From: a virus
DNA length: 31,321 nt
Virus record (IMG/VR): IMGVR_UViG_3300044448_003259
Direction: 5' to 3' (one strand)
Notes under the pieces: model-generated
What the model was told of the DNA's origin: nothing
Databases searched by the model: none
What the model saw: the letters and a program-made list of their open reading frames with translations, nothing else
In this document: in pieces, positions 1 through 29,523 of the stretch
Layout: each line of letters opens with the position of its first letter
Position numbering within the stretch: the stretch's first letter is position 1
Position numbers and translations under genes: made by a program

Positions 1-96
1 TGTCATATTAAAGCTGAAATGGACAAAGAGTTTAATCAGCAATTAAAAGAACAAAATTTAATTAAACACAATCAATATGAAGAAAATAAGTATTAA
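1..96 (+). CDS. HNH endonuclease, 3' fragment (duplicate of 31195..31290, created by the terminal overlap)
   Basis: Reads ...CHIKAEMDKEFNQQLKEQNLIKHNQYEENKY* in the same frame as ORF 31015..31290. Stop TAA at 94-96. Confidence 0.85.
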   Translation, partial: CHIKAEMDKEFNQQLKEQNLIKHNQYEENKY

Positions 97-127
97 TAAA
101 GTTAAGCCTAATAAAGAAAACCCAAGA
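1..127. repeat. Terminal direct repeat, copy 1 (identical to 31195..31321). Assembly overlap indicating a closed circular contig with a 31,194 bp unit.
   Basis: Compared by eye: tgtcatattaaagctgaaatgg...aaagaaaacccaaga occurs at both ends. 127 nt is also a commonly used maximum assembler k-mer length. Confidence 0.95.
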
Positions 128-655
128 ATAATAAAGGGAGATAAGTTTAAAAAATTAGTAAAAAGTATTAAGGAGTTTCCTGAAATGCTAAAAATAAGAC
201 CTATTGTGGTTAATAAAGATTGTGTAGTGTTGGGTGGCAATATGAGATTAAGAGCTTGTATTGACGCTGGATTGAAAGAGGTTTATATAAAAGAGGTAGA
301 TTTATCAGAAGAAAAGCAGAAAGAGTTTATAATTAAAGATAACAACAGCTTTGGGGAGTGGGATTGGGACTTATTAGCTAATGATTGGAACAGCAAAGAG
401 CTAAACGAGTGGGGTATTGATGTTTGGGTTAATGAAATTGAAGATGACGAAAAAGAAATTGACGAAGATGCTTTTGCTTCACAAATAGATACCTATATAA
501 ACGCACAAATAAAGCAGATAGTATTGTATTATAATAGCGAGGAGTACGAAAACGCACTATTAAATTTTGAAAAGGTTAGAGAAAAAGAAAACCTAAACGA
601 CAATACAGAAGTGTTTGACTTTTTAATAAACAAATATTTTAAAAATGAATTATAA
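77..655 (+). CDS. ParB N-terminal domain (ParB/Srx-like nuclease/NTPase fold) protein
   Basis: KPNKENPRII...KLVKSIKEFPEMLKIRPIVV...VVLGGNMRLRAC matches the ParB N-terminal pattern (NPR box, GG-x-R-x-x-A). GEWDWDLL...ELNEWGID is a tail common in phage ParB-like proteins. Overlaps the HNH stop and the next gene. Confidence 0.75.
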   Translation: MKKISINKVKPNKENPRIIKGDKFKKLVKSIKEFPEMLKIRPIVVNKDCVVLGGNMRLRACIDAGLKEVYIKEVDLSEEKQKEFIIKDNNSFGEWDWDLLANDWNSKELNEWGIDVWVNEIEDDEKEIDEDAFASQIDTYINAQIKQIVLYYNSEEYENALLNFEKVREKENLNDNTEVFDFLINKYFKNEL

Positions 656-1391
656 AATAGCAATACCCTCATATAAAAGACCTGAAACTATAAAAAGAAA
701 AACATTAAAAATAATAGATGAGCATAATATTAATATTGATAGGGTTACAATATTTGTTGCAGATAAAGAAGAAGAACAAGAATACATAAATAGTTTAGGA
801 AGCAAATATAAAATAGTAGTGGGTGTTCCAACAATAGGAGAGCAAAGAAACTTTATAGAAAAATATTATAAAGAGGGAGAAAAGGTTTTAATGTTTGATG
901 ATGATATTGACGGAGTGTTTGTAAAAGACGGAAGCAAAATAAAGCCTATTGAAAATTTAGAAGAAGAATTTATAATAAAAGGATTTAATGAGTGCGAAAA
1001 AACAAACGCTAAATTTTTTGGATTGTATGCAGCAGCTAATGGTTATTTTATGAAACATAGAATATACAACAAGCTATGCTATATTTGTGGTGGTGTTTTT
1101 GGTGTAATAATACAGCACGATCCTTTTTTAAACAGAAGAACAAATCACGGAGAAGATTACGAATATAGTATAAGGCAGTATATAAAAAACAAGATTGTTG
1201 TAAGATTTGATTATATAACTATTAAATCTAAATTTTTTAAAGAGGAGGGTGGGCTACAAACAATAAGAACAAAAAAATACATATTTGATAGTATAAACAA
1301 GATTTATAGTATGTTTCCTAGCTATTGCACAATGTATATAAGAAAAAGTTCAGGTAACGCTGAATTAAGATTAAGAGATAAAAGCTTATGA
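645..1391 (+). CDS. GT-A fold glycosyltransferase, TET-associated glycosyltransferase (TAGT)-like
   Basis: N-terminal IAIPSYKRPE strand and a DxD motif (LMFDDDIDG). ATGA-coupled to the TET/JBP gene directly downstream. Confidence 0.6.
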   Translation: MNYKIAIPSYKRPETIKRKTLKIIDEHNINIDRVTIFVADKEEEQEYINSLGSKYKIVVGVPTIGEQRNFIEKYYKEGEKVLMFDDDIDGVFVKDGSKIKPIENLEEEFIIKGFNECEKTNAKFFGLYAAANGYFMKHRIYNKLCYICGGVFGVIIQHDPFLNRRTNHGEDYEYSIRQYIKNKIVVRFDYITIKSKFFKEEGGLQTIRTKKYIFDSINKIYSMFPSYCTMYIRKSSGNAELRLRDKSL

Positions 1392-2260
1392 AAAAAATAA
1401 AAGTAACAAGAAAAGAAATAAATAAGAAAGATTTTGTTAGAAGAACAGCACACCTATCTGATGTAACAAGACATATTAAGGAAGATTGTATTATTTGCAT
1501 AGATGATAAGCCTATATTACTATATAAAACATTAGAAGAAAAACCAAACAAAATAAGAAAAGCAGTTCAAAATGTTAAATACGGAGTAGGTAAAAGAGTA
1601 CACGGTTTAAAAAGTCAAAGTGCAGTATTCGGATATAAACCAAGACAAGAGAATAGGCAAGATTATTGTAGTGCTTCTGCTATGGGAAAAAACCACCCAA
1701 AAGAACACTACCTAATAAGCCAATATGCACAAGAAATAGAAAAACATTATAAAGAACATTTTCCTGAAACATACGATAACCACCAAAAAGAAGTAAAGGA
1801 AAGAGTAAAAGAGGAGTGGGTAATAAAAGATACGGTATTTACAAGTGGAATAGTAAACAAAAACAATCAGCTTAATTATCACTTTGATAGTGGAAACTTT
1901 AAAAATGTATATAGCAATATGCTGGTATTTAAAGGTAATGTAAAGGGTGGTCATTTAGTTATACCTGAAATAGATATATCATTAGAAGTAGCAGATAGTT
2001 CCGTAACAATATTTGACGGACAAGATTTACTACACGGAGTTAGTCCTATAAAATATGTACACAAAGATTCTTATAGGTATTCAATAGTGTATTACTCATT
2101 ACAAAGAATGTGGCAGTGCCTTGAGATTAATGAAGAAATAGGTAGAATAAGAAAGGTTAAAATGGAAAGAGAAAAGAAAAGAATAGACCCTAAACACTTA
2201 GACGAATTAAATAAGAGGTATGTTGAAGCTAAAAATTATAAAAAAGATATAGAAAAATGA
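1388..2260 (+). CDS. TET/JBP-family 2-oxoglutarate/Fe(II) dioxygenase (predicted 5-methylcytosine oxidase)
   Basis: HxD (LNYHFDSGNF), distal His (DLLHGVSPI) and a 2OG-binding Arg in YRYSIVYYS, in the order and spacing of the double-stranded beta-helix. The R-x-S-x-V-x-Y stretch resembles the TET/JBP signature. Confidence 0.8.
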   Translation: MKKIKVTRKEINKKDFVRRTAHLSDVTRHIKEDCIICIDDKPILLYKTLEEKPNKIRKAVQNVKYGVGKRVHGLKSQSAVFGYKPRQENRQDYCSASAMGKNHPKEHYLISQYAQEIEKHYKEHFPETYDNHQKEVKERVKEEWVIKDTVFTSGIVNKNNQLNYHFDSGNFKNVYSNMLVFKGNVKGGHLVIPEIDISLEVADSSVTIFDGQDLLHGVSPIKYVHKDSYRYSIVYYSLQRMWQCLEINEEIGRIRKVKMEREKKRIDPKHLDELNKRYVEAKNYKKDIEK

Positions 2261-5671: not shown

Positions 5672-7114
5672 ATGGCGTATACAATAGAACAAAAACCAAA
5701 CCAATTAGCAGGAGCAAATAGCCCTATGGTTTATGTATTAAAAGAAAGTGACGGAGCAATAACAGGAGCTAGTAAATTTAGATATATAGCACAAGTATAT
5801 ATAAGCACAACAGATGAAAGCACTTGGGTGGAAAAGGCTAAAATAAAAATATATAAAAATGCAGCAGGTGTTGGTATAGTAGATATACATAAAATAGTAA
5901 GAACATTTTTAGAAACACAAACACAAGTATCAATAGAGGATCCGTCAGGCACATTTACTGAATCAACAGGAATAACAGGTAATATACACTGTGCAGGTAT
6001 AGCTGTTGCCGATAGTCCCTTTTCATCTAATACAAGTCAATTAGTAGGAGTTAAATTAGTTGGTGGTTATGAAAAATCTACAAGTGCCACAGCAGCTCCA
6101 ACAGAAACATTAAATCAAGCCAATACAATAATATACTCAATACCTGCAACTACTCCATTTACATCAACAGCTTCTAATGTAGGGGGCTTAGATAAAGATG
6201 GAACTAACAATCCTTTAACTAATTATATTCCTAGTAGTAGCTCAAAGAAGTTTTTAACTAATTCTCCTACCGTTCAATTTGTGAGGGGTGGAGATGACGC
6301 AGCAGATAATGTAGACCACGCTACTGTTGGCTTTATACAAGATGGTAATAGTGTTTTAATAACTGACGGAGATCCTATTGTTAGAATATATGTACAATAC
6401 CACCAAGCAGATGGAACAAGTATAGGTTTGCACCATTTTGTTAATGAGCTAAATGGTGGTGGAATAGCTACTGCTGATGATGTGAGAAATAGCTTGTTAT
6501 ACTTTGGTTGTGGTACTAAAAATTTAGAAACCCAAAGTGATGTTACAGCAGCAAGACCTAGTAATAATGACGGTTGGGTTTATTATAGAGTGTGGGGAGC
6601 AAATGGAGATAATTCACAACAAGAAACAACCTATTATTATTTTTATAAATATGGAGCTAATGCTGGTGTAAACAATAGACACCAAAGTTGCACAAGATAT
6701 AACAACATTAGATTAGCTTGGGTAAATAGATTAGGCTGTTGGGACTATATGAATTTTAGAGGAAAGTCAGTTGAGGGTGTTGATATTAAAAGAAGCGAAA
6801 TGGAAAGTGTGCCCGGAACTTGGAATAATGCAACCTTTGCTTATGAAAATCAAGAGGGGGGAAGAAAGATTTTATTTACAGAAGCTAAAAGAAAATTAAA
6901 TATTAACTCTGATTGGCTAAATGAAGATGAGGCAGTATGGTTAGAGGAATTATTTACCTCTACTCAAGTACATCAAATACAAGACGATAGTGTTGTTTAT
7001 CCTGTTATAGTAACAAACAAATCATATACTAAAAAAACCAGCGTAAACAATAAGATTAAAATACAATACAAAATAACATTAGAATACGCAAACAAAGTAA
7101 GAACTAATAGCTGA
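5672..7114 (+). CDS. Tail structural protein (distal-tail/baseplate candidate)
   Basis: 480-aa ORF directly upstream of, and coupled (TGATG) to, the 1140-aa tail protein. No catalytic motif. Confidence 0.45.
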   Translation: MAYTIEQKPNQLAGANSPMVYVLKESDGAITGASKFRYIAQVYISTTDESTWVEKAKIKIYKNAAGVGIVDIHKIVRTFLETQTQVSIEDPSGTFTESTGITGNIHCAGIAVADSPFSSNTSQLVGVKLVGGYEKSTSATAAPTETLNQANTIIYSIPATTPFTSTASNVGGLDKDGTNNPLTNYIPSSSSKKFLTNSPTVQFVRGGDDAADNVDHATVGFIQDGNSVLITDGDPIVRIYVQYHQADGTSIGLHHFVNELNGGGIATADDVRNSLLYFGCGTKNLETQSDVTAARPSNNDGWVYYRVWGANGDNSQQETTYYYFYKYGANAGVNNRHQSCTRYNNIRLAWVNRLGCWDYMNFRGKSVEGVDIKRSEMESVPGTWNNATFAYENQEGGRKILFTEAKRKLNINSDWLNEDEAVWLEELFTSTQVHQIQDDSVVYPVIVTNKSYTKKTSVNNKIKIQYKITLEYANKVRTNS

Positions 7115-10100
7115 TGGATATAAGATTGTTGGCATATAGAAGAAACACAACCTCAGAGGGAACTTATGATTTAACTCAATTTGAATTAGATTTACAAAAA
7201 GCCCCTAATGTAGTAGCTAATTATAATTGGATAAATTTAAAGGAGCCTGATAAAAGAAAATCTAGTTTTAGTCAAACACTTAAACTGCCTTTTTCCAATA
7301 GAAACAATAAGTTTTTTGAAAATTACTTTGATGTTAATTTAGATACTTTAGTATATAATGCTAAAATAAAATTTAACGCTATTCTTTATGTGGATAGTGT
7401 TCCTCAATTAAAAGGCTTTATACAGCTTAAAGCTGTTTATTTAAACGCTAGGGTTTATCAGGTTGTTTTATTTGGAGCAACAGCAGACTTTTTTACTGAT
7501 ATTAAGTCAGCTAAATTAAAGGACGCTTTTAAAACTACTAGCAACACGGATCCTGATGTTCAATTAATAGACGGACAGCTAGACCATTTTTTAACTCCTG
7601 CTAATATAGTTAAAAGCTGGACATCAGGGGTAACATTAGCAGGTGGTGGTAGTGATGATGACATACTATACCCTATTATAGATTATGGACATACTTCTGT
7701 TCCTTATTCAAGTGCTATGTTTTGGACTCCTGATGATTTATACCCTACAGGAATAGGTGCCCCTACAGATAGTGCAGATTTTTATGGAGCTGTTAGGGCA
7801 GGAGATTTAAAACCTGCAATAAGAATACAAAGATTAGTTCATATAATAGCACAAAAAGCAGGCTATCAAATTAAAAGTGCTTTTATGGGTATTGATGATA
7901 CAGCAGAAACTCCAATAACAGACACTCAATTCTTTAGTAGGTTGTTTATGACCTTAGCTAATCAATTTCAAAGAGTTCAAACCTTATTTAATTCTGTTGA
8001 GGGTAGTCAAGTTCCTTTTGTTGGATTTAGCACTTCTTTAAGTGTGTTTACCTATCCTACTTCTATGCCTTGTGTTTTGTTAGCAAATGATCCACCGTTT
8101 CCTGACAATCTTCCTTATACTAACTTTAATGAATTGTGCTACCCTAATTTAGCAACATTTACTACTGCCTATGATCCTAATAATTTATTTACAGTAGCAA
8201 CAAATGATCCTGCTGATTCTTTTGGTCCACTTGGTTATCGACCTAGAGTTACTTTTCCTGCAGATTTTGACGGAGATGATGTTACGCTAAGTGAGGGTGA
8301 CTTTCCTGTAAAAGTAACAGCAACAATACAAATACCTGAGCAAACTGTTCAAGGAACTGATTTAGGTTTTTGTTATGTTATGATAGGCTGGGACGAGGGT
8401 GGAATTGCTAGTGGTTATGGAAACACAGATTATCAAGATTTTCTTTTAAACCCAGGCACTCATACTGTAGAATGGACTTATAATATGAATTGCACACCTA
8501 ACAATATCTATGAAATGTTTATAGAGCTTGAAGCTAATGACACAAACCAATCTAGTGTTCCTGATAACAATACTTGGCAGCCTAGGGTTACAGCTTTAAG
8601 TATAGAATCGGTAAATGGTGGGGTAAATACTTTAATGGGTGGTGGTGAAAATGGTTTAGTTTCGATTCATCACAATTTACCTGATATGACACAATCTGAT
8701 TTTATAAGAGATTTAGTAAACAGGTTTAATTTAGTTATTCAAACAGACGCAGACAATGAAAAGTTATTACTAATAGAGCCTTATCAAGATTTTATAGACG
8801 CTGGGAGTATTCAGTATTGGACAGATAAATTAGATATTTCTAAAGAGGTGGTTATAAAGTCCACTAACGAATTACAATCTAAAACTTTAAAATTTAGTGA
8901 TTTGTTAGACAAAGATATTTTAAACGAAAGATATAATAAGCTCTATGATGTGGTTTATGGACAATATGAAAAGCTACAATTATCAGATTTTGCAAAAAAG
9001 GACTTTAAAAACTTTAGTGTGTTTTCTCCTTTTATTGCACAAGGAATACCCTATTGGACTAATGGTGGAATAAATGGAGCTATACCCTCTGCTGATGTTG
9101 CGTTAGCTTATTTATTTAAAGCAGAAGTAGGGCAACAAGCTACAGCTACAGACCTTAAGCCTAAAATGTTTTATTATAGTGGAACTCCTATAAATGTGCA
9201 AGGATCAAACCCTAACACAAGTAATAATTATAGCTTTCATATATACTCAAATGGATATTTAACAAATAATGACGCACACCCCTCAGATGACAACAACGGA
9301 TCTGCAAATAAGTTTCCTTTATGTACACAATACAATTTAGACAATTTATCTACAGGAGTAACATCAGCAACAAAGGTTTTAAATTGGACTTATTACGGAA
9401 ACAATTTTACTACAGGATTTACTTTTAATTTCTTTGGAGATGTTTATACAGACCACGGTTTTTATCACGACTATTGGGCTCAATATATAAATGAGATATA
9501 TAGTGATGAGGCTAGAATAATGGAGTGCTATTTGAATTTAACACCTGAAGATATAAGGACTTTTTCAGGTAATGGCTTTCAAAATACATACTTTATTAAA
9601 AATACTTTGTGGAGAATTATTAGTATAAGTAATTATGCTGTTGGTAAAAACAAATCAACAAAAGTAGTTTTATTAAAGGTGTTGCAAAAGTTAAGTAATG
9701 ATTGTGGTAATATTCCTACTATTAGTCAAACAGGACAAATAACTTGGGTTGACGCTGGTACAGGTGCCTCGGTTGCAAGTGTTACTAATTCTTGTTGTGA
9801 GGAGCAAAACGAAAATTGGACTTTTGTTCAAACTAATGCGACTACAGGTGTAGGACAATGTTATGCTATTGGTGGGGATAGTGGAGATACAACTTTAGTA
9901 GATTTAGTTTCTACAGAGGGGGAGATTATAATAGGCACAGATGAAACATTTACAGGTGGCGATGGTAATGGAGATACATCAGGTATGAATATGTCTATGC
10001 TGCCGACAATACAAAACAATTTCGGAATACAAACATCTCAAGGACAAGGTAAATCTTTAACTTATTTTTGTGAATGTACTACCTATGATAATTCTACACC

Positions 10101-10536
10101 AGTTAAAGTTTCTTTTAAAGGATATGATTCTAATATTTTAACCTTTCCGTCTTTTACTATGAACTATATCACTGTAAAATTATATGGTACTGTGATGTCA
10201 GGAGCTAATAATAGAGATGTTGGTTATTTTGAGTATGATACAATTATAACAAAAAGAGGCGACACTAATGATTATGTAGGAAGTTCAGGGGGAACATTTT
10301 TAAAGCAAAATAAAGATACAAGCTTTAGTGCCCCAACGGTAGATATAACAAATTTTGACGGACAGAATTGGTCGCCTATTATAAGGGGTGGGGCTGACGA
10401 GGACGTTTTTTGGGTAGCAGAAGTTAAAATTACTAGCACACCTGTAAATATACCAACTTTAAGAAGAAGGGCAGCTATTTATCAAAACGCAGATGATATA
10501 TTAACGCAGGATCTAAATTATTTATTATGGAATTAG
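7114..10536 (+). CDS. Large tail protein (tail tip / host-recognition candidate)
   Basis: Largest ORF (1140 aa), Gly/Thr/Asn-rich, with a Cys-containing C-terminal third. Its size and position among tail genes suggest the role. Confidence 0.5.
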   Translation: MDIRLLAYRRNTTSEGTYDLTQFELDLQKAPNVVANYNWINLKEPDKRKSSFSQTLKLPFSNRNNKFFENYFDVNLDTLVYNAKIKFNAILYVDSVPQLKGFIQLKAVYLNARVYQVVLFGATADFFTDIKSAKLKDAFKTTSNTDPDVQLIDGQLDHFLTPANIVKSWTSGVTLAGGGSDDDILYPIIDYGHTSVPYSSAMFWTPDDLYPTGIGAPTDSADFYGAVRAGDLKPAIRIQRLVHIIAQKAGYQIKSAFMGIDDTAETPITDTQFFSRLFMTLANQFQRVQTLFNSVEGSQVPFVGFSTSLSVFTYPTSMPCVLLANDPPFPDNLPYTNFNELCYPNLATFTTAYDPNNLFTVATNDPADSFGPLGYRPRVTFPADFDGDDVTLSEGDFPVKVTATIQIPEQTVQGTDLGFCYVMIGWDEGGIASGYGNTDYQDFLLNPGTHTVEWTYNMNCTPNNIYEMFIELEANDTNQSSVPDNNTWQPRVTALSIESVNGGVNTLMGGGENGLVSIHHNLPDMTQSDFIRDLVNRFNLVIQTDADNEKLLLIEPYQDFIDAGSIQYWTDKLDISKEVVIKSTNELQSKTLKFSDLLDKDILNERYNKLYDVVYGQYEKLQLSDFAKKDFKNFSVFSPFIAQGIPYWTNGGINGAIPSADVALAYLFKAEVGQQATATDLKPKMFYYSGTPINVQGSNPNTSNNYSFHIYSNGYLTNNDAHPSDDNNGSANKFPLCTQYNLDNLSTGVTSATKVLNWTYYGNNFTTGFTFNFFGDVYTDHGFYHDYWAQYINEIYSDEARIMECYLNLTPEDIRTFSGNGFQNTYFIKNTLWRIISISNYAVGKNKSTKVVLLKVLQKLSNDCGNIPTISQTGQITWVDAGTGASVASVTNSCCEEQNENWTFVQTNATTGVGQCYAIGGDSGDTTLVDLVSTEGEIIIGTDETFTGGDGNGDTSGMNMSMLPTIQNNFGIQTSQGQGKSLTYFCECTTYDNSTPVKVSFKGYDSNILTFPSFTMNYITVKLYGTVMSGANNRDVGYFEYDTIITKRGDTNDYVGSSGGTFLKQNKDTSFSAPTVDITNFDGQNWSPIIRGGADEDVFWVAEVKITSTPVNIPTLRRRAAIYQNADDILTQDLNYLLWN

Positions 10537-19910: not shown

Positions 19911-20441
19911 ATGGCAGGACAAAGATTAACAGACAAAACAGCTCTAGAAGAACAAACAGGTAGTGGTGACTTATTTATGGTTGTTGATTCATCTGACACT
20001 ACAGGATCGGCAGCAGGAACGAGTAAAAAAATAGATTCTAAATTTGTAATACAAACTGATAAAATTTCAGTTACTAATACAGAGGTTGTAAATCTACATA
20101 GCACACCAAGAACATTAGTAGGGGCTTTAAGTGGCTATATGATTACAGTGCTTAATGTTAATGTATTAGTGACTTATGCTTCATCAACAGAAGCGTCAAG
20201 TAATGACTTGTATTTTGGCTATGATGATTCTAGTAACTCTTACTATTGGAAGTATTTAAGAGATTTTATGAACTTAAAAACAGATGATTTAAGTTATTCT
20301 CTACAAGCAGACACAGCAGCAGGTGGTACTTTTAACGCTTCAATTTTAAACAAGCCTTTTATAATGTGGTCTAATGCAGCCTTTACAGGTGGTTGGTCAG
20401 CAGAGGTTTATGTTACTTACGCTTATACTAAAATATTATAA
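19911..20441 (+). CDS. Hypothetical virion protein
   Basis: 176-aa ORF. N-terminal LTDKTALEEQTGSGDLFMVVDSSD...GTSKKID is a pattern I have seen at the N-termini of phage fibre/structural proteins. Confidence 0.35.
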   Translation: MAGQRLTDKTALEEQTGSGDLFMVVDSSDTTGSAAGTSKKIDSKFVIQTDKISVTNTEVVNLHSTPRTLVGALSGYMITVLNVNVLVTYASSTEASSNDLYFGYDDSSNSYYWKYLRDFMNLKTDDLSYSLQADTAAGGTFNASILNKPFIMWSNAAFTGGWSAEVYVTYAYTKIL

Positions 20442-21469
20442 TGGACACTACTAAATATATATACGCTTTACTAATAATAGTAGTATTTGGTTTGGCTACT
20501 TGTAATGCTCAATTTTTTAAATACGCTACTTTCTATACTTCTATGAGTATGAATACCAGTATGTTAGAGGATCAGGATTTTATAGCAATAAATAAAGGAT
20601 ATGAAGAAACTACGCAAATTAACCCATACGATTACAACTTCACTATTGGAATACGCAAAATTGCTAGGTTTGATTTTGAGCAAAAAGTTAAAACTTGGTA
20701 CTATGGTAATGAGCAAAGCTATAGCGATAACACTACTATTGGTAATAATAGTGGGTGGGAGTATTTACTTAATTATTCTTTTATACGCAATAGGTCTGAA
20801 AAATTTACTAACCAAGATTTTTGGGTTAGATATTTAGGCTCTAAATTTGTTACTAAATTGCAGTTAAAAAATGATGAAGCAAGAGATTTAAGTTATAGCT
20901 CTTTAGATACTAGATTTAGAATAAATAAAGGTCGTTGGGATTTTACTCTTGGAATGGTTGCTAGAAACCACAGCGTTTACCACATCAATCCAATAGAGGA
21001 TTTTTGGGTTAGTGGGGAAAGTTCTTTTCAGGAATTAGCAGAAGATTTTGGGTATTCTACTCAATTTGTTAACGGTCAATTTCATTGGTTTAAAAATGGA
21101 GAATTATTAGCAACTTCAAATGATGAGTTTTTTAAGCACTATTTTGGATCGGCAATAGCAGAGTATAACCAAGAGCAATTAAGTGCACTAGGAAGCGTTA
21201 CAGAGCTTTCTGCGGTGCTTGGAGTTTCCTATTACAAGTACAGTAATGACTTTTGGTTGCTGGGTTGGGTTAATTTACTGCCCTATCACTATGGTTTAGA
21301 TAAATATTCTTTTGAGTATGAGGGCTCTCCAATAGATTTAGATTTAGGGCTTGTAACAGGTTGGAAAATAACCAAGTCGTTAGGGATATTTGTAGAGGGT
21401 ACTTATTTAAGGTATTGGGAGAAGCCAATATATGAGTGCAAATTAGGGTTTAATTATTTAATATTTTAG
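20441..21469 (+). CDS. Secreted outer-membrane beta-barrel-like protein
   Basis: Signal peptide (YIYALLIIVVFGLATCNA/Q), repeated amphipathic aromatic-rich strands, and a C-terminal ...KLGFNYLIF ending in Phe, as in OMP beta-barrels. Confidence 0.55.
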   Translation: MDTTKYIYALLIIVVFGLATCNAQFFKYATFYTSMSMNTSMLEDQDFIAINKGYEETTQINPYDYNFTIGIRKIARFDFEQKVKTWYYGNEQSYSDNTTIGNNSGWEYLLNYSFIRNRSEKFTNQDFWVRYLGSKFVTKLQLKNDEARDLSYSSLDTRFRINKGRWDFTLGMVARNHSVYHINPIEDFWVSGESSFQELAEDFGYSTQFVNGQFHWFKNGELLATSNDEFFKHYFGSAIAEYNQEQLSALGSVTELSAVLGVSYYKYSNDFWLLGWVNLLPYHYGLDKYSFEYEGSPIDLDLGLVTGWKITKSLGIFVEGTYLRYWEKPIYECKLGFNYLIF

Positions 21470-21471
21470 GT

Positions 21472-21957
21472 ATGAAAAAATTATTGTTGTTTTTTGTGTT
21501 TAGTTTTGGCTTTAGTCAAACAAATTGTGAGCTTTGCGTTGAGCAAAATGGCTTTTATTGTGGAGATGATGAGAGTAATTGGACGCAGTATTCTCCTAAT
21601 GGTTGTGTTCCTAATGGTTTAAACAACTTATTTTATCTTAATGACGGCTGGCTTGATTGTGTTGATGGATCTGATGAGGAAGAAGCAGTACCTACTACTT
21701 TAGCTGAATGTGATATATACAATGCTGGAGATACTATATTTATAACTGACACTCTTTATATTAATGTTACTGATACGCTTACAATAACAGAGTATATAGA
21801 TTGTCAAACAGGTTTGCCTTGTGAAAACATAGGTATAATTGAGATACTTAATAAATCTCAAAACGAAAATAAAATATATAATCTTGATGGAAAGGAAATT
21901 TACAGAAGAAAAGGGTTATATATAGAGAATGGAAAAATTAACTTTAAATTAAAATAA
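21472..21957 (+). CDS. Secreted protein with an LDL-receptor class A-like acidic calcium-binding motif and a T9SS-type C-terminal sorting tail
   Basis: Signal peptide MKKLLLFFVFSFGFS/Q. NDGWLDCVDGSDEEE fits DG-x-x-DC-x-DGSDE. The C-terminus KIYNLDGKEIYRRKGLYIENGKINFKLK resembles the iY-x-l-x-G-x-x-v...kGiYIvNGkKv-x-vK tails of Bacteroidota T9SS cargo. Confidence 0.5.
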   Translation: MKKLLLFFVFSFGFSQTNCELCVEQNGFYCGDDESNWTQYSPNGCVPNGLNNLFYLNDGWLDCVDGSDEEEAVPTTLAECDIYNAGDTIFITDTLYINVTDTLTITEYIDCQTGLPCENIGIIEILNKSQNENKIYNLDGKEIYRRKGLYIENGKINFKLK

Positions 21958-21958
21958 T

Positions 21959-22147
21959 ATGAAAGAAGTAATAATGAAAATGGTAAACAGTAGAAAGTTT
22001 TGGTATGGATTTTCTATACTAATGGTTATAATGTTTTCTCAAGATTTAGGTATTAGTGAAACAAAAATGAATAGCCTTTTGGTTGTTGGTGTGGCTCTAA
22101 TTATAGGTCAAGGACTAGCAGATAAGTCCTGTAATATGAAAAAATAA
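21959..22147 (+). CDS. Small two-TM membrane protein (holin/antiholin candidate)
   Basis: 62 aa with two hydrophobic helices (FWYGFSILMVIMF; LLVVGVALIIGQGLA) and a charged C-terminus. First gene of the lysis block. Confidence 0.45.
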   Translation: MKEVIMKMVNSRKFWYGFSILMVIMFSQDLGISETKMNSLLVVGVALIIGQGLADKSCNMKK

Positions 22148-22422
22148 TGGCAACGGAAGTCTCAGAATCAAGTAAATTTACTCTATCGCTAAAAAGTATT
22201 ATAGCTATAGTTGTTTTAGTTAGTAGCTTTGTAGGACAATATTATGTTTTAAGTAATGAAATAGATTTAGCAAAGCGTTTGCCTGAAAGTGAAATATCAC
22301 GATCAGAGCTTGACTTAAAGCTAGAATTAATTAGTAAAACGGTTATGTCTAACGCTGAAAAACTAGAAAAAGTAGAAACAAGTATGGAGAAAATAGAGGA
22401 AAGAGTTTACGAGCTTAAATGA
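22147..22422 (+). CDS. N-terminally anchored coiled-coil protein (i-spanin-like)
   Basis: One TM helix (IIAIVVLVSSFVGQYYVL) followed by a charged helical region. ATGA-coupled to the next gene. Confidence 0.4.
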   Translation: MATEVSESSKFTLSLKSIIAIVVLVSSFVGQYYVLSNEIDLAKRLPESEISRSELDLKLELISKTVMSNAEKLEKVETSMEKIEERVYELK

Positions 22423-22769
22423 AATTTCTAACATACATACTATTATTGTTGGTAGGGGGCTATTGTTTCGGTCAAGATATTGGAAAGTCCAATGGAATAT
22501 TAGTCGTAGAATTTTACGCTGATTGGAACAAACATAATTCTTGTAAATATTTAAACGAACTTGCCGAGTGTAAAACACTTATGGTTAATATAGATAGAAG
22601 AAAAGATTTACAAGAAAAATATAATATAGAAGTTCTACCAACTTTAATAGTTTTTAACAACTCTGTTGAAATATGTCGATTTACAGGTAACTTACTTTTC
22701 CAGCTAAATGTTAAAAAGAAAGAAGTACAAGCAAAAATAGATAGTATAATAATTAGTAAATTTGAGTAA
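22419..22769 (+). CDS. Exported thioredoxin-fold protein lacking the CxxC active site
   Basis: Signal or lipoprotein-like leader MKFLTYILLLLVGGYCFGQ. ILVVEFYADWNKHNSCKYL...EVLPTLIVFNN parallels the thioredoxin pattern vv-x-FwA-x-WCgpCk...PTl-x-x-f, but WCGPC is replaced by WNKHNSC. Confidence 0.5.
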   Translation: MKFLTYILLLLVGGYCFGQDIGKSNGILVVEFYADWNKHNSCKYLNELAECKTLMVNIDRRKDLQEKYNIEVLPTLIVFNNSVEICRFTGNLLFQLNVKKKEVQAKIDSIIISKFE

Positions 22770-23386
22770 TGAAATTAACAAAAGAACTTATTGAAGAAAC
22801 ATTAAAAGATAGGGGTTATGCTTGGTTTGAAAACGGAGATTATAACCTTAATATAGTGGGTGTTAGAAATAGTAATACAGGAGATGAGGTTACAAATGTA
22901 TTTGATGACAAAATAACTCTATCTTATAAAGTAAATGGAGAATGGGAGTTTTATAGCTTTGACGCTACTACGGATCCTGGCAGATATTGGGTAGAAAATA
23001 TTATGAGAGTAGAGGGTGTGGCTTGTATGAAAGAGGGGCAATATAGAGGAGCGTATAGAATAGACAAGCACAGAGGAAATTATGACGCTTTGTGTCAAAG
23101 AAACGGAGAGGTTACAGTATATAGAGATAGTAATAAAGACGGTTGCTATGATTTAGATGATGACAATACACAAACAGGTTATTTTGGTATAAATATACAC
23201 AGGGCTACAGCTAGAGAGGGTAAAAAATCTACACAAGTAGATAAATGGTCGGCAGGGTGTCAAGTAATAGCTTCTAATAATGATTGGAATGAGTTTATAT
23301 TTGCTTGTTATAAGGCTAGACAAATTTGGGGAAACAGCTTTACCTATACATTAATTAAAAGCGAAAACATCTATGGGGATATTTAA
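22769..23386 (+). CDS. Putative peptidoglycan hydrolase (endolysin candidate) with a His...Cys motif
   Basis: FDATTDPG, VYRDSNKDG, GINIHRA and DKWSAGCQV. The H...SxGC arrangement is reminiscent of YkuD/L,D-transpeptidase-fold enzymes. Lies between holin-like genes. Confidence 0.45.
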   Translation: MKLTKELIEETLKDRGYAWFENGDYNLNIVGVRNSNTGDEVTNVFDDKITLSYKVNGEWEFYSFDATTDPGRYWVENIMRVEGVACMKEGQYRGAYRIDKHRGNYDALCQRNGEVTVYRDSNKDGCYDLDDDNTQTGYFGINIHRATAREGKKSTQVDKWSAGCQVIASNNDWNEFIFACYKARQIWGNSFTYTLIKSENIYGDI

Positions 23387-23759
23387 AAACATATTAGGAA
23401 CAGAAAAAATTGTAGATAGCGTTGGTAAAATAATAGACGGTGTTGTAACAAACAAAGAAGAAAAGATAAACGCTAAAGCAAAGCTTAAAGAAATAATGAA
23501 CTCCTATAAAATAGAGGTTGAAAAAAATATTACTTCACGCTGGGAAGCAGATACAAATGGTAATATACTTACAAGATCCGTAAGACCTTTAGTATTAATA
23601 TTCCTAATAGTTTGTACTATGCTACTTGTATTTATTGATAGTGGTAGTATAGCCTTTCAAGTTGAAGATAAATGGACAGATTTATTACAGCTTACTTTAA
23701 TAACGGTGATAGGTGCCTATTTTGGTGGGCGTAGCGTTGAAAAATTTAAAAAGAAATAA
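23373..23759 (+). CDS. Holin candidate (GTA-type 3-TM holin-like)
   Basis: The N-terminal soluble helix, then TRSVRPLVLIFLIVCTMLLVFI plus further hydrophobic segments, matches my memory of that family. Overlaps the end of the endolysin candidate. Confidence 0.45.
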   Translation: MGIFKNILGTEKIVDSVGKIIDGVVTNKEEKINAKAKLKEIMNSYKIEVEKNITSRWEADTNGNILTRSVRPLVLIFLIVCTMLLVFIDSGSIAFQVEDKWTDLLQLTLITVIGAYFGGRSVEKFKKK

Positions 23760-27292: not shown

Positions 27293-28054
27293 ATGAAATC
27301 AATATTAGCGTCAAGTTCTTTCTTTATTATTAATAAAAACCTGTTATATTTTGTTGGGCTTGACGCAAGTATTGTTTTATCAGATCTTGTACAAAAGAGG
27401 GCATACTTTAAACAAACCCACCAATTAAACGGTGGGTTTTTTTATAACACCTCTGAATCAATTAGCTGTAGTACTTCGCTTTCTTATTATCAAATTAAAC
27501 AAGCTTTGTCAATCTTACAAAGAAACGATTTTGTAGAGGTTAAGTTAAAAGGAATACCGGCAAAAAACCATTTTAAAATATTTGATGACAAAATATTAAA
27601 ATACCTAAATACCTGTAATGAAAAAATTGTAATACAGGAATGCGAAAATTTTAAATTAAATAATAATAAAGAAATAAGAATAAAAAATAATAACAAGAGT
27701 AGCTCTCGCAAAGAAAGGTTTTTAAATGATTTAAAAGAATTAGAGCCTAGAGATTATATAGAGGACTTTGTTGATTATTGGACAGAAGAAAACAATTCAG
27801 GTAAACAAAGGTGGGAATTAGAAAAAACTTGGAATACCAGCTTAAGATATAAGCGTTGGTGTAGAAATCAAAAGAATTTTAGCAACGGAAGTAGTGCAAA
27901 TAATATGCCTGACTTTTTAGATAGTGCATACTTAAATAGAATTAGAGAGGATCAATCACAAGTAAACAAGTTTTACAAACACCTTGTAGATAATTGTCAG
28001 TATGAAAAAATAGAAACTTTAACAGGCCACATTAAATACAGAAAGAAAAGATGA
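27293..28054 (+). CDS. Putative replication organiser / DNA-binding protein (N-terminal winged-helix-like)
   Basis: FFIINKNLLYFVGLDASIVLSDLVQKRAYF...SESISCSTSLSYYQIKQALSILQRNDFVEV resembles the N-terminal wHTH of DnaD/phage replication initiator-like proteins. Weak call. Confidence 0.3.
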   Translation: MKSILASSSFFIINKNLLYFVGLDASIVLSDLVQKRAYFKQTHQLNGGFFYNTSESISCSTSLSYYQIKQALSILQRNDFVEVKLKGIPAKNHFKIFDDKILKYLNTCNEKIVIQECENFKLNNNKEIRIKNNNKSSSRKERFLNDLKELEPRDYIEDFVDYWTEENNSGKQRWELEKTWNTSLRYKRWCRNQKNFSNGSSANNMPDFLDSAYLNRIREDQSQVNKFYKHLVDNCQYEKIETLTGHIKYRKKR

Positions 28055-28650
28055 AAAATTGGTTAAATAATAGAAATAAAAACACAGTTTATACAACACT
28101 AGGGGCAAGTAGTCATAGTAAAGATGATAGGGAACAATATGATTATTATGCAACAAACCCTAAATGTGTAGAAGATCTATTTGAAAGGGAAGTTTTTAGT
28201 GGAAATATTTGGGAGTGTGCTTGTGGGGAGGGTCACTTATCTAAAAGAATGTTAAAAATTGGTAGTCACTATGGAATAAATGTTTATAGCTCGGATATAA
28301 TAGATCGTGGCTATGGTGATGTGTTAGATTTTTTATCTATAGATGTGCAAGAGTGGTTAGGTGATATAGTAACCAATCCACCTTATAAATACGCACAGGA
28401 TTTTGTAGAAAAATCATTAAAAATAATACCTAATGGAAATAAGGTTGCTATGTTTTTAAAGCTAACATTTTTAGAGGGGCAAAAAAGAAAATTATTATTT
28501 AAACACAACCCTCCCAAAATAGTATATGTTTATAGTAAAAGACAAGAATGTGCTAAAAATGGAGAATTTAAAGGAACAAGTGCTGTTGCATATTGTTGGT
28601 ATATTTGGGAAAAAGGCTTTAATGGTGACACAATTATTAAGTGGATATGA
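28051..28650 (+). CDS. SAM-dependent DNA amino-methyltransferase (NPPY; N6-adenine or N4-cytosine)
   Basis: YYATNP, motif I-like WECACGEGHLS and motif IV DIVTNPPY. Confidence 0.7.
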   Translation: MKNWLNNRNKNTVYTTLGASSHSKDDREQYDYYATNPKCVEDLFEREVFSGNIWECACGEGHLSKRMLKIGSHYGINVYSSDIIDRGYGDVLDFLSIDVQEWLGDIVTNPPYKYAQDFVEKSLKIIPNGNKVAMFLKLTFLEGQKRKLLFKHNPPKIVYVYSKRQECAKNGEFKGTSAVAYCWYIWEKGFNGDTIIKWI

Positions 28651-28787
28651 TATTTATAAGTTTTATAAAGAATGGTTTGTTGCTTGGGGTTAGACATTTT
28701 GAGCCTGATGAAATAAGAAAGTATTGGGAGATCCATATACTATTATTAGTATTTCAAATTAATATATTTATACATACAGAAAAATGA
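28647..28787 (+). CDS. 46-aa hypothetical protein (below the track cutoff)
   Basis: My translation: MIFISFIKNGLLLGVRHFEPDEIRKYWEIHILLLVFQINIFIHTEK*. ATGA overlaps at both ends link the two methyltransferase genes. Confidence 0.4.
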   Translation: MIFISFIKNGLLLGVRHFEPDEIRKYWEIHILLLVFQINIFIHTEK

Positions 28788-28885
28788 TAGAGGTTTCATT
28801 AATAAGTTTTTTAACAGGGTTGGCTATGGGTTTGTATGTTTCCAGCTGGCTAATTAAGTGGATAGATAAAAAAACAAAAAAATGA
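28784..28885 (+). CDS. 33-aa single-TM micro-protein
   Basis: My translation: MIEVSLISFLTGLAMGLYVSSWLIKWIDKKTKK*. ATGA overlaps at both ends. Confidence 0.4.
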   Translation: MIEVSLISFLTGLAMGLYVSSWLIKWIDKKTKK

Positions 28886-29523
28886 AAATACTTAATTTAT
28901 ACGCTTGTCTAGGTGGAAATAGATACAAATGGAATGAAGTAAAAGATGATATAGAAGTTACTGCTGTTGAAAAAGATTTAGAATTAGCTAAATTATATAA
29001 ACAAAGGTTTCCTAATGATAAAGTTGTATTAGGTGACGCTCACGAATACTTACTACATAATTATAAAAACTTTGATTTTATTTGGAGTAGCCCTCCTTGT
29101 CCTACTCATAGTAGAGCAAGATTTGCTAGGAGAAATACAACCACTTCATTATATCCTGATATGACATTATACCAAGAAATAATACTTTTAAAACACTATT
29201 TTAAAGGTAAATATTGTGTTGAAAATGTAATGCCTTTTTATGATAGTTTAATTCCAGGAAAGCAAAGAGGCAGACACTTGTATTGGACAAATTTTAGGCT
29301 ACCAAGTGATTTAAAAGAAAGAAAATGCTCTATAATGAAAGGTAAAAATGAAGTTAAAAGGTGGTCAGAATTTCACGAATACGACTTTAATAAATATAAA
29401 GGAAAACAAAGGTTAGATAAAATAGCTAGAAATTTAGTAGATTATGAAGCTGGAAAAGCAATATTTCAAACGCTAATAGACATTAAACAAAACAAAGTAG
29501 AACAAATAGGACTTTTTAAATGA
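28882..29523 (+). CDS. DNA (cytosine-5) methyltransferase, minimal form with an almost absent target-recognition domain
   Basis: Motif I LNLYACLGGN, motif IV SSPPCPTHS (catalytic Pro-Cys), motif VI CVENV and motif VIII QRGRHLYW. Only about 85 aa follow motif VIII. Confidence 0.75.
   Translation: MKILNLYACLGGNRYKWNEVKDDIEVTAVEKDLELAKLYKQRFPNDKVVLGDAHEYLLHNYKNFDFIWSSPPCPTHSRARFARRNTTTSLYPDMTLYQEIILLKHYFKGKYCVENVMPFYDSLIPGKQRGRHLYWTNFRLPSDLKERKCSIMKGKNEVKRWSEFHEYDFNKYKGKQRLDKIARNLVDYEAGKAIFQTLIDIKQNKVEQIGLFK

What the first reader, a model, noticed from the sequence alone, without database searches (positions are those of the whole stretch)
21472..21957. Small secreted protein combining an LDL-receptor class A-like DG-x-x-DC-x-DGSDE motif with a T9SS-type C-terminal tail
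Seen: signal peptide MKKLLLFFVFSFGFS/Q. A Cys-rich N-terminal half contains NDGWLDCVDGSDEEE. The C-terminus is KIYNLDGKEIYRRKGLYIENGKINFKLK.

Established: the D-C-x-D-G-S-D-E acidic cluster is the calcium cage of LDLa modules, which are overwhelmingly eukaryotic. Bacteroidota T9SS cargo proteins end in a beta-sandwich CTD whose last strands commonly read like iY-x-l-x-G-x-x-v…kGiYIvNGkKv-x-vK.

Inference: the phage makes a protein that is exported and possibly surface-attached by the host type IX secretion system. Phage exploitation of T9SS for a non-virion protein, carrying a calcium-binding receptor-type module, would be unusual. It may act with the adjacent barrel protein.
Basis: partly seen in the sequence, partly recalled or inferred. 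Interest (0 to 1): 0.7.

Follow-up and report, generated by a model that had tools for sequence, protein, structure and literature searches.

The report
Phage secreted protein built from host modules
An abundant group of uncultured marine phages encodes a small exported protein that joins a calcium-binding LDL-receptor-type module to a C-terminal tail copied from their flavobacterial hosts' secreted proteins; the tail is not a recognisable type IX secretion signal, and the gene always travels with an unknown outer-membrane barrel-like gene beside the lysis genes.

Summary
The ORF (21472-21957, 161 aa) is real and belongs to a family of more than 1,150 protein clusters from marine metagenomes.

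**LDLa reading: supported.** The N-terminal module is a divergent bacterial LDLa-type module. All calcium-cage residues are invariant. It is 55% identical (E 4e-19) to a module that passes Pfam's Ldl_recept_a cutoff in a bacterial protein. It has lost one disulfide pair.

**T9SS-CTD reading: not supported as membership.** No type A or type B model hits the phage protein, 10 host carriers or 58 diverse tails, and the positive controls worked. The AF2 tail model is a helix plus a four-strand meander with no PDB fold match. Only one hairpin (vYNLxGqxV) resembles type A CTDs above chance.

**What the tail is.** It is an undescribed C-terminal module of about 55 aa. It ends signal-peptide-bearing proteins of uncultured marine Flavobacteriales that carry trypsin, LamG, SprB-repeat and LRR cargo. 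One such genome also encodes a canonical type A CTD protein.

**Context.** An orphan barrel-like gene lies upstream in 80/80 viral loci, within a conserved envelope/lysis cassette.

**Best reading:** a host-mimicking, surface-targeted protein. The export route is plausibly T9SS but unproven.

The parts
21472..21516 (+). Sec (SPase I-type) signal peptide, residues 1-15, MKKLLLFFVFSFGFS|Q
   Evidence: Read from the sequence. K-K n-region, hydrophobic core, G-F-S at positions -3 to -1. Conserved as M-K-K-hydrophobic...(S/A)Q in homologs. Resembles the host-lineage signal peptide MKKLLLLLIIPFLSFGQ.
21517..21711 (+). Divergent bacterial LDLa-type Cys module, residues 16-80 (C19, C22, C30, C45, C63, C80). 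The calcium cage Y55-x-N57-D58-G-W60-x-D62-C63-x-D65-x-S-D68-E69 lies at 21634-21678.
   Evidence: Pfam Ldl_recept_a 13.1 bits, E 0.12, residues 58-71. Other phage homologs score 14-19 bits. BLASTP 55% identity, E 4e-19, to the P0213 module that passes the Pfam cutoff; N57 aligns to the 4th Cys and A72 to the 6th Cys. PDB profile hits are only LDLa modules, including VLDLR and glucosidase II beta. Mean pairwise identity 86.9% and cage residues 100% conserved.
21712..21789 (+). Beta-rich repeat spacer, residues 81-106, (I/V)-D-T-(L/I)-Y-(I/V) units; length is hypervariable between homologs
   Evidence: Linker length is 32-120 aa in 76 phage homologs and about 190 aa in L086. The same repeat type precedes the tail in host proteins. 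AF2 predicts a low-confidence beta-hairpin.
21790..21957 (+). C-terminal tail module, residues 107-161, plus stop codon: TEYIDC-x-TGLPC loop, helix at about 122-132, then two beta-hairpins (KIYNLDGKEIYRR / GLYIENGKINFKLK)
   Evidence: Behaves as an independent module that is always C-terminal in other proteins. The motif core ends 5-9 residues from the C-terminus in 43/43 representatives. AF2 pLDDT is 83-90 over the last ~37 residues. No Pfam, NCBIfam, PHROG or PDB match.
20441..21469 (+). Adjacent 342-aa predicted outer-membrane barrel-like protein (signal peptide; conserved first strand FFKY(A/S)T(F/I)Y; C-terminal ...GFNYLIF). Orphan family found only in phage-type loci.
   Evidence: Upstream of the small gene in 80/80 IMG/VR loci, immediately adjacent in 79. 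Present in 46/82 tail loci from metagenomes, all phage-type; none of the longer cellular loci has it. No Pfam, NCBIfam or PDB sequence match, including the T9SS barrel families. The barrel fold itself was not verified.
21959..22147 (+). 62-aa small membrane protein with two hydrophobic segments; weak holin-like
   Evidence: phrog_9987 holin, E 0.043. Detected in 57/80 loci.
22147..22422 (+). 91-aa protein with an N-terminal TM segment and a coiled coil; i-spanin-like
   Evidence: phrog_739 Rz-like spanin, E 0.014, weak. Detected in 75/80 loci. Sequences shown.
22419..22769 (+). 116-aa secreted thioredoxin-fold protein without a CxxC active site
   Evidence: Pfam Thioredoxin 4.4e-09. Signal peptide and a W-N-x-x-N-x-C pattern in place of CxxC across the loci examined; detected in 75/80 loci.
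22769..23386 (+). Endolysin-like protein
   Evidence: phrog_3000 1.6e-34 and phrog_33083 endolysin 1.4e-17. A homolog is found in only 26/80 loci, so it has been replaced in many.
23373..23759 (+). Holin
   Evidence: phrog_3427 holin 1.6e-24 and Pfam GTA_holin_3TM 6.9e-05. Detected in 65/80 loci.

Best explanation
The gene encodes a Sec-exported, acidic (pI about 4), disulfide-rich protein of 146 mature residues. It is built from modules the phage shares with its host lineage, uncultured marine Flavobacteriales. The three parts are a bacterial LDLa-type calcium-cage module that has lost one of its three disulfides, a beta-rich DTxYV spacer of variable length, and a C-terminal module of about 55 aa.

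In the host lineage that C-terminal module terminates many signal-peptide-bearing proteins that carry surface or secreted cargo domains. The most likely mechanism is as follows. After Sec export, the tail is handled by the same host outer-membrane sorting or anchoring route that serves host proteins with this tail. That route is most plausibly the T9SS, with the tail acting as a non-canonical, undescribed CTD. The strongly constrained calcium-binding module is then displayed on a stalk at the surface of the infected cell.

The protein is made from the same tightly packed operon as a phage-specific outer-membrane barrel-like protein and probably works with it. Both belong to a late envelope/lysis cassette.

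Shown: export signal, modular homology, LDLa kinship, strict C-terminal position of the tail, host-lineage origin, and invariant synteny. Inferred: surface display, T9SS dependence, partnership with the barrel, and the biological role. That role is late remodelling or occupation of the cell surface, for example masking receptors or anchor sites against superinfection or progeny loss, or assisting the outer-membrane step of lysis.
For: Both halves behave as independent modules in an exhaustive profile search.

LDLa module: homologous copies pass Pfam's Ldl_recept_a cutoff in P0143, P0145 and P0213, which also carry Por_Secre_tail. Identity to the P0213 copy is 55%, E 4e-19. Cage residues are invariant and the module is 86.9% conserved, against 62% for the tail.

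Tail: always at the extreme C-terminus (43/43). Carriers have trypsin, Laminin_G_3, SprB repeats, DUF285/PARCEL, LRR or thyroglobulin-1 cargo and MKK...FGQ signal peptides. It is encoded in housekeeping chromosomal contexts in a Flavobacteriales MAG and a Bacteroidetes SAG. In the MAG the neighbouring gene encodes a canonical type A CTD protein (27 bits, E 2.3e-07 against an HMM of Pfam-verified CTDs), which implies T9SS cargo in that lineage. The vYNLxGqxV hairpin similarity to type A CTDs exceeds 60/60 column-shuffled nulls.

Synteny: barrel 80/80, p91 75/80, Trx-like 75/80, across different phage backbones.

The cargo-plus-adjacent-shuttle logic has a precedent in type B CTD/PorP-SprF pairs (PMC12618676). 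Flavobacterium phage resistance maps to gliding and T9SS genes.
Against: No T9SS CTD profile (type A or type B) matches the phage protein, 10 host tail proteins or 58 diverse tails.

At about 55 aa, with a helix plus a four-strand meander in the AF2 model, the tail is unlike the roughly 100-aa seven-strand Ig fold of type A. It has no PDB fold match. hhalign probability is only 9.6%, and the last-hairpin similarity is not above null.

The barrel shows no similarity to PorP/SprF, PorV or any known family. It is absent next to host tail genes, so it is not a generic partner of the tail.

Placement in the lysis cassette fits a lysis role as well as a surface-display role. Nothing here shows outer-membrane translocation. 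The host assignment is indirect.
Confidence: 0.45

Rival explanations
1. One reading: the tail is a bona fide T9SS type A CTD (an Ig-like beta-sandwich recognised by PorV, cleaved by PorU and attached to anionic LPS).
For: Sec signal peptide plus an extreme C-terminal conserved domain. Motifs are collinear with type A CTDs (LPC~PNP, vYNLxGqxV, GxYI, and a basic end) in the relaxed hhalign alignment. The local score of 18.8 is above 60/60 shuffles. Host carriers have classic T9SS-cargo domains.
Against: PF18962 and TIGR04183 are negative in every test although positive controls score about 1e-10. The tail is about half the length of a type A CTD. The AF2 model contains a helix and only four short strands, with no PDB match to solved CTDs. 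hhalign probability is 9.6%. The last hairpin is not above null.
Confidence: 0.1
2. An autonomous phage two-partner system. The tail is recognised by the phage's own barrel, working like a type B CTD with its cognate PorP/SprF shuttle, or like a plug-and-barrel complex. The pair would assemble in the outer membrane without relying on the route that handles host tail proteins.
For: Barrel synteny in 80/80 viral loci, adjacent in 79, with 2-nt spacing in the window. The barrel occurs only in phage loci. Type B cargo needs a shuttle encoded by the adjacent gene in stoichiometric amounts, and type B CTDs are predicted as a four-strand sheet plus a less ordered region (PMC12618676), which resembles the AF2 tail model.
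Against: TIGR04131 does not hit the tail, and no PorP/SprF-type family hits the barrel. Host tail proteins have no adjacent barrel homolog, so the tail evidently works without it in cells. The barrel lies upstream of the cargo gene, not downstream as in the described type B pairs. The barrel fold is unverified.
Confidence: 0.2
3. A lysis accessory. The barrel and the small protein act in the envelope at the end of infection to help breach or destabilise the outer membrane, complementing or replacing spanins, and surface display is not the point.
For: The pair is embedded in a conserved cassette with a holin, an endolysin, an i-spanin-like TM/coiled-coil protein and a secreted Trx-like protein. 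The cassette moves as a unit between phage backbones. In L086 an o-spanin-like proline-rich lipoprotein lies between the barrel and the small gene.
Against: No similarity to any known lysis protein. The near-invariant LDLa-type binding module and the variable-length stalk look like a ligand-binding display protein, not a membrane disruptor. The tail is shared with ordinary host surface proteins. One calcium site per molecule could not chelate outer-membrane cations to any useful extent (inference).
Confidence: 0.15
4. A purely periplasmic protein. The tail is a folding, oligomerisation or retention domain, and the protein, perhaps together with the catalytically dead Trx-like protein, binds a periplasmic target.
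For: Nothing shows outer-membrane translocation. A secreted Trx-fold protein co-occurs in 75/80 loci and the protein has eight cysteines.
Against: In host proteins the tail follows adhesin- or enzyme-type extracellular cargo (SprB repeats, LRR, LamG, trypsin) at the position normally held by a surface-sorting domain. A hypervariable stalk length is typical of surface-projected proteins (inference).
Confidence: 0.1

Closest known systems
LDL-receptor class A module (Pfam PF00057), including the glucosidase II beta / PRKCSH-type variant
   Same: The calcium-cage residues are all present and invariant (aromatic-x-[C/N]-D-G-x-x-D-C-x-D-x-S-D-E). Cys spacing fits C1, C2, C3 and C5. Homologous bacterial copies pass the Pfam cutoff. 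Like the glucosidase II beta variant, it has N-D in place of C-D before the cage.
   Different: The C4-C6 disulfide is lost (N57 and A72). The C2-C3 loop is 14 residues long (GDDESNWTQYSPNG). There is a 5-residue insertion before the cage and extra cysteines at C19 and C80. It scores below the Pfam threshold (13-19 bits). It occurs in a phage protein and in bacterial surface proteins, not in a eukaryotic receptor.
T9SS type A C-terminal domain (TIGR04183 / PF18962)
   Same: Sec signal peptide plus a conserved extreme C-terminal domain on otherwise unrelated secreted or surface proteins of Bacteroidota. Shares the vYNLxGqxV hairpin and a GxYI...K-x-K ending. Occurs in a genome that also encodes a canonical type A CTD protein.
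   Different: About 55 aa rather than about 100. No PNP motif. The predicted fold is a helix plus a four-strand meander, not a seven-strand Ig sandwich. No profile or fold match. It is preceded by a disulfide loop (DCxTGLPC) and a repeat stalk.
T9SS type B CTD with a cognate PorP/SprF shuttle (TIGR04131; PMC12618676)
   Same: The cargo gene is physically linked to a gene for an outer-membrane protein. The small beta-sheet-type prediction for the signal is similar. Cargo is adhesin-like.
   Different: No TIGR04131 hit, and no PorP/SprF-type hit for the barrel. The barrel is upstream and occurs only in phage loci. Host tail proteins lack an adjacent barrel.
Phage-encoded envelope proteins such as lambda Lom (OM barrel) and Bor (lipoprotein beside the lysis genes) and T5 Llp (receptor-blocking lipoprotein); comparison drawn from my own knowledge
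   Same: Non-virion, signal-peptide-bearing phage proteins targeted to the host envelope, and encoded near late or lysis genes.
   Different: No sequence relationship. Here the protein is a mosaic of host surface-protein modules, with a host-type C-terminal module in place of a lipobox or a barrel of its own. The pair is universally conserved in the phage group, not an optional moron.

Membership tests
LDLa (Pfam PF00057 Ldl_recept_a) | Profile score at or above the Pfam gathering threshold (24.1 bits) | tested here: not met
   13.1 bits, E 0.12, for the window protein. Four of five other phage homologs tested score 14-19 bits; the fifth has no hit.
LDLa (Pfam PF00057 Ldl_recept_a) | Homology to modules that are bona fide LDLa by profile | tested here: met
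   Family profile hits P0143, P0145 and P0213 at 1e-20 to 1e-11. Those proteins score 44.2, 26.1 and 30.4 bits for Ldl_recept_a, and in P0213 the LDLa-scoring stretch (371-394) lies inside the region matched by the family profile (346-416). BLASTP to P0213: 55% identity, E 4e-19.
LDLa (Pfam PF00057 Ldl_recept_a) | Calcium-cage acidic residues (D-x-x-x-D...D-E) and the preceding aromatic residue | tested here: met
   Y55, D58, W60, D62, D68 and E69 are present; D58, W60, D62, D68 and E69 are 100% conserved in 76 homologs. Calcium binding itself was not measured.
LDLa (Pfam PF00057 Ldl_recept_a) | Six cysteines forming three disulfides (C1-C3, C2-C5, C4-C6) | tested here: not met
   C4 is replaced by N57 and C6 by A72 in the alignment to P0213. 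That is one complete pair lost, with C19 and C80 as extra cysteines.
T9SS type A CTD (TIGR04183 / PF18962) | Match to the type A CTD profiles | tested here: not met
   No hit at E<=10 for the phage protein, at E<=1 in 10 host tail proteins, or at E<=10 in 58 tails. Positive control: PF18962 at about 1e-10 in P0143, P0145, P0203 and P0213.
T9SS type A CTD (TIGR04183 / PF18962) | About 100 aa with a seven-strand Ig-like beta-sandwich (PMC12618676) | tested here: not met
   AF2 tail model (mean pLDDT 74.5; 83-90 over the last ~37 residues) shows a helix plus four short strands. Foldseek against PDB gives a best E of 1.9 and no CTD match. The model's confidence is moderate.
T9SS type A CTD (TIGR04183 / PF18962) | N-terminal Sec signal plus the domain at the extreme C-terminus of diverse cargo | tested here: met
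   43/43 tails end 5-9 residues after the core motif.
T9SS type A CTD (TIGR04183 / PF18962) | Remote homology by profile-profile comparison | tested here: inconclusive
   hhalign probability 9.6%, and only the KIYNLDGKEI~QVYNLVGQIV hairpin aligns. Its score of 18.8 exceeds 60/60 column shuffles, but the last hairpin does not exceed null. The canonical CTD alignment had only 8 sequences.
T9SS type A CTD (TIGR04183 / PF18962) | Secretion depends on T9SS/PorV; CTD cleaved by PorU | not testable with these tools
   Needs secretion assays in wild-type versus T9SS mutants.
T9SS type B CTD with PorP/SprF shuttle (TIGR04131) | Match to the TIGR04131 profile | tested here: not met
   No hit.
T9SS type B CTD with PorP/SprF shuttle (TIGR04131) | Adjacent gene encodes a PorP/SprF-family outer-membrane shuttle | tested here: not met
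   Adjacency holds (80/80 upstream, 79 immediately adjacent). However, the barrel matches no PorP/SprF-type or other family in Pfam, NCBIfam or PDB sequences, and it lies upstream, not downstream.
Spanin (i-/o-spanin) lysis proteins | Type II membrane protein with a coiled coil, or a small OM lipoprotein | tested here: not met
   The small protein has an SPase I-type signal, no lipobox, and no TM segment beyond the signal peptide. No PHROG hit. The neighbouring p91 is the i-spanin-like gene.

The most novel reading that the evidence does not exclude
The tail is a third, undescribed class of outer-membrane translocation or anchoring signal used by streamlined marine Flavobacteriales. It would be either a minimal T9SS CTD or a signal for another route. 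An abundant group of marine phages has captured it, together with a phage-specific outer-membrane barrel acting as a private shuttle or anchor. The phages use the pair to display a calcium-dependent, receptor-type binding module on infected cells late in infection. This would be the first case of a phage hijacking a Bacteroidota surface-protein sorting pathway for a non-virion protein.
Probability: 0.3. Interest if true: 0.8.

Novelty: new variant of a known kind. Interest (0 to 1): 0.6.

Why it matters
The gene pair is widespread in ocean viromes: more than 1,150 protein clusters for the small protein, many from TARA samples, and conserved across several phage backbones. Yet it has no annotation in any library.

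If the tail is a secretion or anchoring signal, three things follow:
- It defines a C-terminal sorting domain that current T9SS cargo predictors (TIGR04183, TIGR04131) miss in uncultured marine Flavobacteriales, so their surface proteomes are being under-called.
- It gives a compact tag of about 55 aa that can be tested directly with reporter fusions.
- It would show phages borrowing a host surface-sorting route, with consequences for superinfection exclusion, receptor masking and lysis in a phylum where the outer-membrane step of lysis is poorly understood.

The result also shows that LDLa-type calcium modules are an ordinary building block of marine bacterial surface proteins and are not a eukaryotic curiosity.

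Tried and rejected
1. Full-length AF2 model with an 18-sequence alignment: mean pLDDT 41.7, unusable. I replaced it with a tail-only model.
2. tblastn of the small protein and the barrel against 50,697 GenBank phage records: no match. BFVD returned only an unnamed homolog, A0A516M511.
3. Tail-profile search of the 5.8-billion-protein database: it returned mostly short fragments. P0253 starts like a Por_Secre_tail domain and ends identically to the phage tail, so it looked like a bridging sequence. I rejected it as evidence because it sits on one 892-bp contig, and sibling hits (P0192, thymidylate synthase plus tail; P0183, barrel N-terminus plus tail; P0314, Trx N-terminus plus tail) show that chimeras or recombinants are common among these fragments.
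4. Barrel as PorP/SprF, PorV or PorQ: no support from Pfam, NCBIfam or PDB sequence profiles.
5. Barrel as a generic partner of host tail proteins: rejected, because it is absent from the cellular loci.
6. Trx-like protein as the missing o-spanin: rejected, because there is no consistent lipobox across homologs.
7. Post hoc test of the last hairpin against the final type A CTD strands: not above null, 4/60 shuffles reach it.
8. Calcium chelation from LPS as a lysis mechanism: considered and rejected on stoichiometry (inference).
9. Virion decoration protein: rejected because of the signal peptide.
10. Temperate lifestyle or moron logic: no integrase or repressor among the ORFs scanned, but not every ORF was scanned.
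Full report
**Observation.** ORF 21472-21957 (+) is exactly as described: 161 aa, signal peptide MKKLLLFFVFSFGFS|Q, eight cysteines, NDGWLDCVDGSDEEE at residues 57-71, and a C-terminus of KIYNLDGKEIYRRKGLYIENGKINFKLK. It starts 2 nt after the stop of a 342-aa ORF and is followed 2 nt later by the next ORF, so it sits in a tightly packed operon.

The window is a tailed-phage genome. It has a large terminase, a portal (phrog_33693, 1e-82) and a prohead protease-like gene. Downstream lie an endolysin-like gene and a holin. A metallophosphoesterase gene resembles those of Cellulophaga, Nonlabens, Tenacibaculum and Flavobacterium phages, which points to a flavobacterial host.

The protein is not a chance ORF. 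One search found 1150 proteins with E<=0.01, many from TARA metagenomes and several on contigs of about 30 kb. One search found 143 relatives in IMG/VR.

**Anatomy.** Alignments of 18 and then 81 homologs show a constant plan:
- a signal peptide;
- a Cys-rich N-module (residues 16-80);
- a beta-rich spacer of (I/V)DT(L/I)Y(I/V) units, 32-120 aa long in 76 homologs and about 190 aa in L086;
- a tail of about 55 aa (residues 107-161), beginning TEYIDCxTGLPC.

Mean pairwise identity is 86.9% for the N-module, 52.8% for the spacer and 62.0% for the tail. In those 76 homologs C19, C22, C30, C45, C63, N57, D58, W60, D62, D68 and E69 are 100% conserved; C80, C111 and C117 are invariant in the 18-sequence alignment. 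The mature protein has a pI of about 4, and the tail alone about 8.

**The N-module is a divergent bacterial LDLa-type module.** Pfam gives only a sub-threshold half-module hit for the window protein (13.1 bits, cutoff 24.1). Four of five other phage homologs tested score 14-19 bits, and Ldl_recept_a is the only family above noise. A family profile searched against PDB sequences hits only LDLa-type modules: VLDLR at E 0.026, plus glucosidase II beta, enteropeptidase and LDLR.

The exhaustive profile search was decisive. The module recurs inside large bacterial proteins at E 1e-20 to 1e-9. In P0143, P0145 and P0213 the protein passes Pfam's Ldl_recept_a threshold (44.2, 26.1 and 30.4 bits); P0203 scores 22.4, just under it. 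In P0213 the LDLa-scoring stretch lies within the region the family profile matches.

BLASTP of the phage module against P0213 gives 55% identity, E 4e-19. It aligns N57 with the 4th Cys and A72 with the 6th Cys, with a 5-residue insertion. So the phage version keeps the whole calcium cage but has lost exactly one disulfide pair (C4-C6). The same derived form (YYLND...DGSDE..A(L/V)PT..C) occurs in proteins that share the host-lineage signal peptide, such as P0154, and in P0129 and P0147. The LDLa reading is therefore supported, with the correction that such modules are normal components of marine bacterial surface proteins.

**The tail is a real C-terminal module, but not a recognisable T9SS CTD.** In the representative search, profile positions ~85-164 match the end of otherwise unrelated proteins. 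The core motif ends 5-9 residues from the C-terminus in 43/43 representatives. Carriers have MKKLLLLLIIPFLSFGQ-type signal peptides (18 of 28 cargo-bearing proteins by eye; most others look 5'-truncated). Their cargo includes trypsin, Laminin_G_3, SprB repeats, DUF285/PARCEL, LRR and thyroglobulin-1.

Two species-representative genomes encode such proteins in housekeeping contexts: a Flavobacteriales MAG and a Bacteroidetes SAG, the latter with lysyl-tRNA synthetase, Dxr and RseP as neighbours. In the MAG the neighbouring 1,341-aa protein ends in a canonical type A CTD. It scores 27 bits, E 2.3e-07, against an HMM built only from Pfam-verified CTDs. That lineage therefore encodes canonical T9SS cargo and uses both kinds of C-terminus.

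Tests of CTD membership gave these results:
- PF18962, TIGR04183 and TIGR04131 hit nothing in the phage protein, in 10 host carriers or in 58 diverse tails.
- The positive control worked: PF18962 scored about 1e-10 in P0143, P0145, P0203 and P0213.
- The tail-only AF2 model (mean pLDDT 74.5; 83-90 over the last ~37 residues) shows a helix followed by two short hairpins, not a seven-strand sandwich.
- Foldseek finds nothing in the PDB (best E 1.9). In BFVD it finds only an unnamed homolog.
- hhalign against eight canonical CTDs aligns only KIYNLDGKEI with QVYNLVGQIV, at 9.6% probability. That local score exceeds 60/60 column-shuffled nulls, but the last hairpin does not exceed its null.

Membership of type A or type B is therefore not met. 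A distant or convergent relationship to the type A hairpin remains possible.

**Context.** The 342-aa upstream protein has a signal peptide, a conserved first strand and a ...GFNYLIF C-terminus. It lies upstream of the small gene in 80/80 IMG/VR loci, immediately upstream in 79. The 91-aa TM/coiled-coil protein and a secreted thioredoxin-fold protein without CxxC are detected downstream in 75/80, and the holin in 65/80. A homolog of the endolysin is found in only 26/80, so it has been exchanged in many loci.

The cassette also occurs in different backbones: a 58.8-kb scaffold and an 88.8-kb phage with DNA polymerase A and a P22-type portal. In the latter, a proline-rich lipoprotein lies between the barrel and a 302-aa homolog of the small protein.

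The barrel is an orphan, with no Pfam, NCBIfam or PDB sequence match for 17 diverse members. Among 82 tail-bearing metagenomic and genomic loci it is present in 46, all phage-type. The tail ORFs I examined in those loci all carry the N-module. None of the longer cellular loci has a barrel homolog. So the barrel is phage-specific and is not a general partner of host tail proteins.

**Interpretation.** The phage protein is a minimal mosaic of host-lineage surface-protein parts: signal peptide, LDLa-type binding module, stalk and C-terminal module. The best-supported mechanism is Sec export followed by handling of the tail by whatever host route serves the host's own tail-bearing proteins.

T9SS is the leading candidate for that route, because of the phylum, the cargo types, the coexisting canonical CTD and the shared hairpin. 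It is unproven, and the formal CTD tests failed.

The invariant linkage to a phage-specific barrel resembles the type B CTD/PorP-SprF cargo-shuttle arrangement described in PMC12618676, but without any detectable homology. The position inside the lysis cassette keeps a lysis-accessory role open. Flavobacterium phage resistance repeatedly maps to gliding and T9SS genes. That makes a late-expressed mimic of T9SS-type surface proteins a plausible tool for receptor or anchor masking, though this is inference.

**Novelty.** I found no paper on phage-encoded T9SS cargo, on LDLa modules in phages, or on such a cassette, and no GenBank phage record with either gene. I rate it a new variant of known kinds: C-terminal sorting domains, and phage-encoded envelope proteins.

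**Limits.**
- The tail model has moderate confidence.
- The canonical CTD alignment was small.
- The barrel fold is unverified.
- The host is inferred.
- No experiment bears on localisation.

Noticed in passing
window 22419-22769: A secreted thioredoxin-fold protein (Pfam Thioredoxin 4.4e-09) whose CxxC site is replaced by W-N-x-x-N-x-C. It is conserved downstream of the small Cys-rich protein in 75/80 phage loci. It might be a chaperone or partner for the eight-cysteine protein, or an unrelated envelope factor.
   Followed up: partly
L086 11050-11229 and 12140-12481: In an 88.8-kb phage, a 59-aa proline-rich lipoprotein (lipobox LATG|C, o-spanin-like) lies between the barrel and the small-protein homolog. 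A 113-aa TM plus coiled-coil protein (i-spanin-like) follows. This suggests the barrel/small pair is interleaved with a spanin pair.
   Followed up: partly
L002 4663-6174: A host LRR protein carries a run of near-identical DTLYVDNFIYETLW tandem repeats (on the order of a dozen) before the tail. This implies rapid expansion and contraction of the stalk, matching the length variation seen in the phage proteins.
   Followed up: no
L001 4267-6171 and 7996-12021; also P0144, P0158, P0173, P0204: Host-lineage secreted proteins are packed with a Cys repeat of about 26 aa, GC(T/M)Dxx(A)CNY(N/D)xxAxxDDGSCxY. No Pfam or NCBIfam model matched it in the proteins scanned.
   Followed up: no
P0135 and P0154 (C-termini): Proteins with the same host-type signal peptide that contain the LDLa-like module end in a different short tail (...KKVIQVIDILGKTTNTKGFRLIIYDDGVIDKKYLIK). 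Pfam's CTD model also missed it. It may be a second unrecognised C-terminal signal in this lineage.
   Followed up: no
window 22769-23386 versus L029-L084: A homolog of the endolysin gene is found in only 26/80 related loci, while the flanking barrel, small, p91, Trx-like and holin genes stay in place. This looks like modular swapping of the muralytic enzyme.
   Followed up: partly
P0183, P0314, P0253, P0192 (short metagenomic ORFs): These are in-frame fusions of the tail with the barrel N-terminus, the Trx-like N-terminus, the start of a canonical type A CTD, or thymidylate synthase. They are either assembly chimeras or natural recombinants at short shared motifs such as KIYNLNGK.
   Followed up: no
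window 77-2260 and 28051-29523: There is a ParB-like nuclease (phrog_940), a glucosyltransferase-like protein, a queuine tRNA-ribosyltransferase/DpdA-like protein (phrog_6059, 1.3e-46) and at least two DNA methyltransferases. The phage probably modifies its DNA heavily.
   Followed up: no
window 5672-10536: Two large ORFs (480 aa and 1,140 aa) in the structural region have no PHROG match at all.
   Followed up: no
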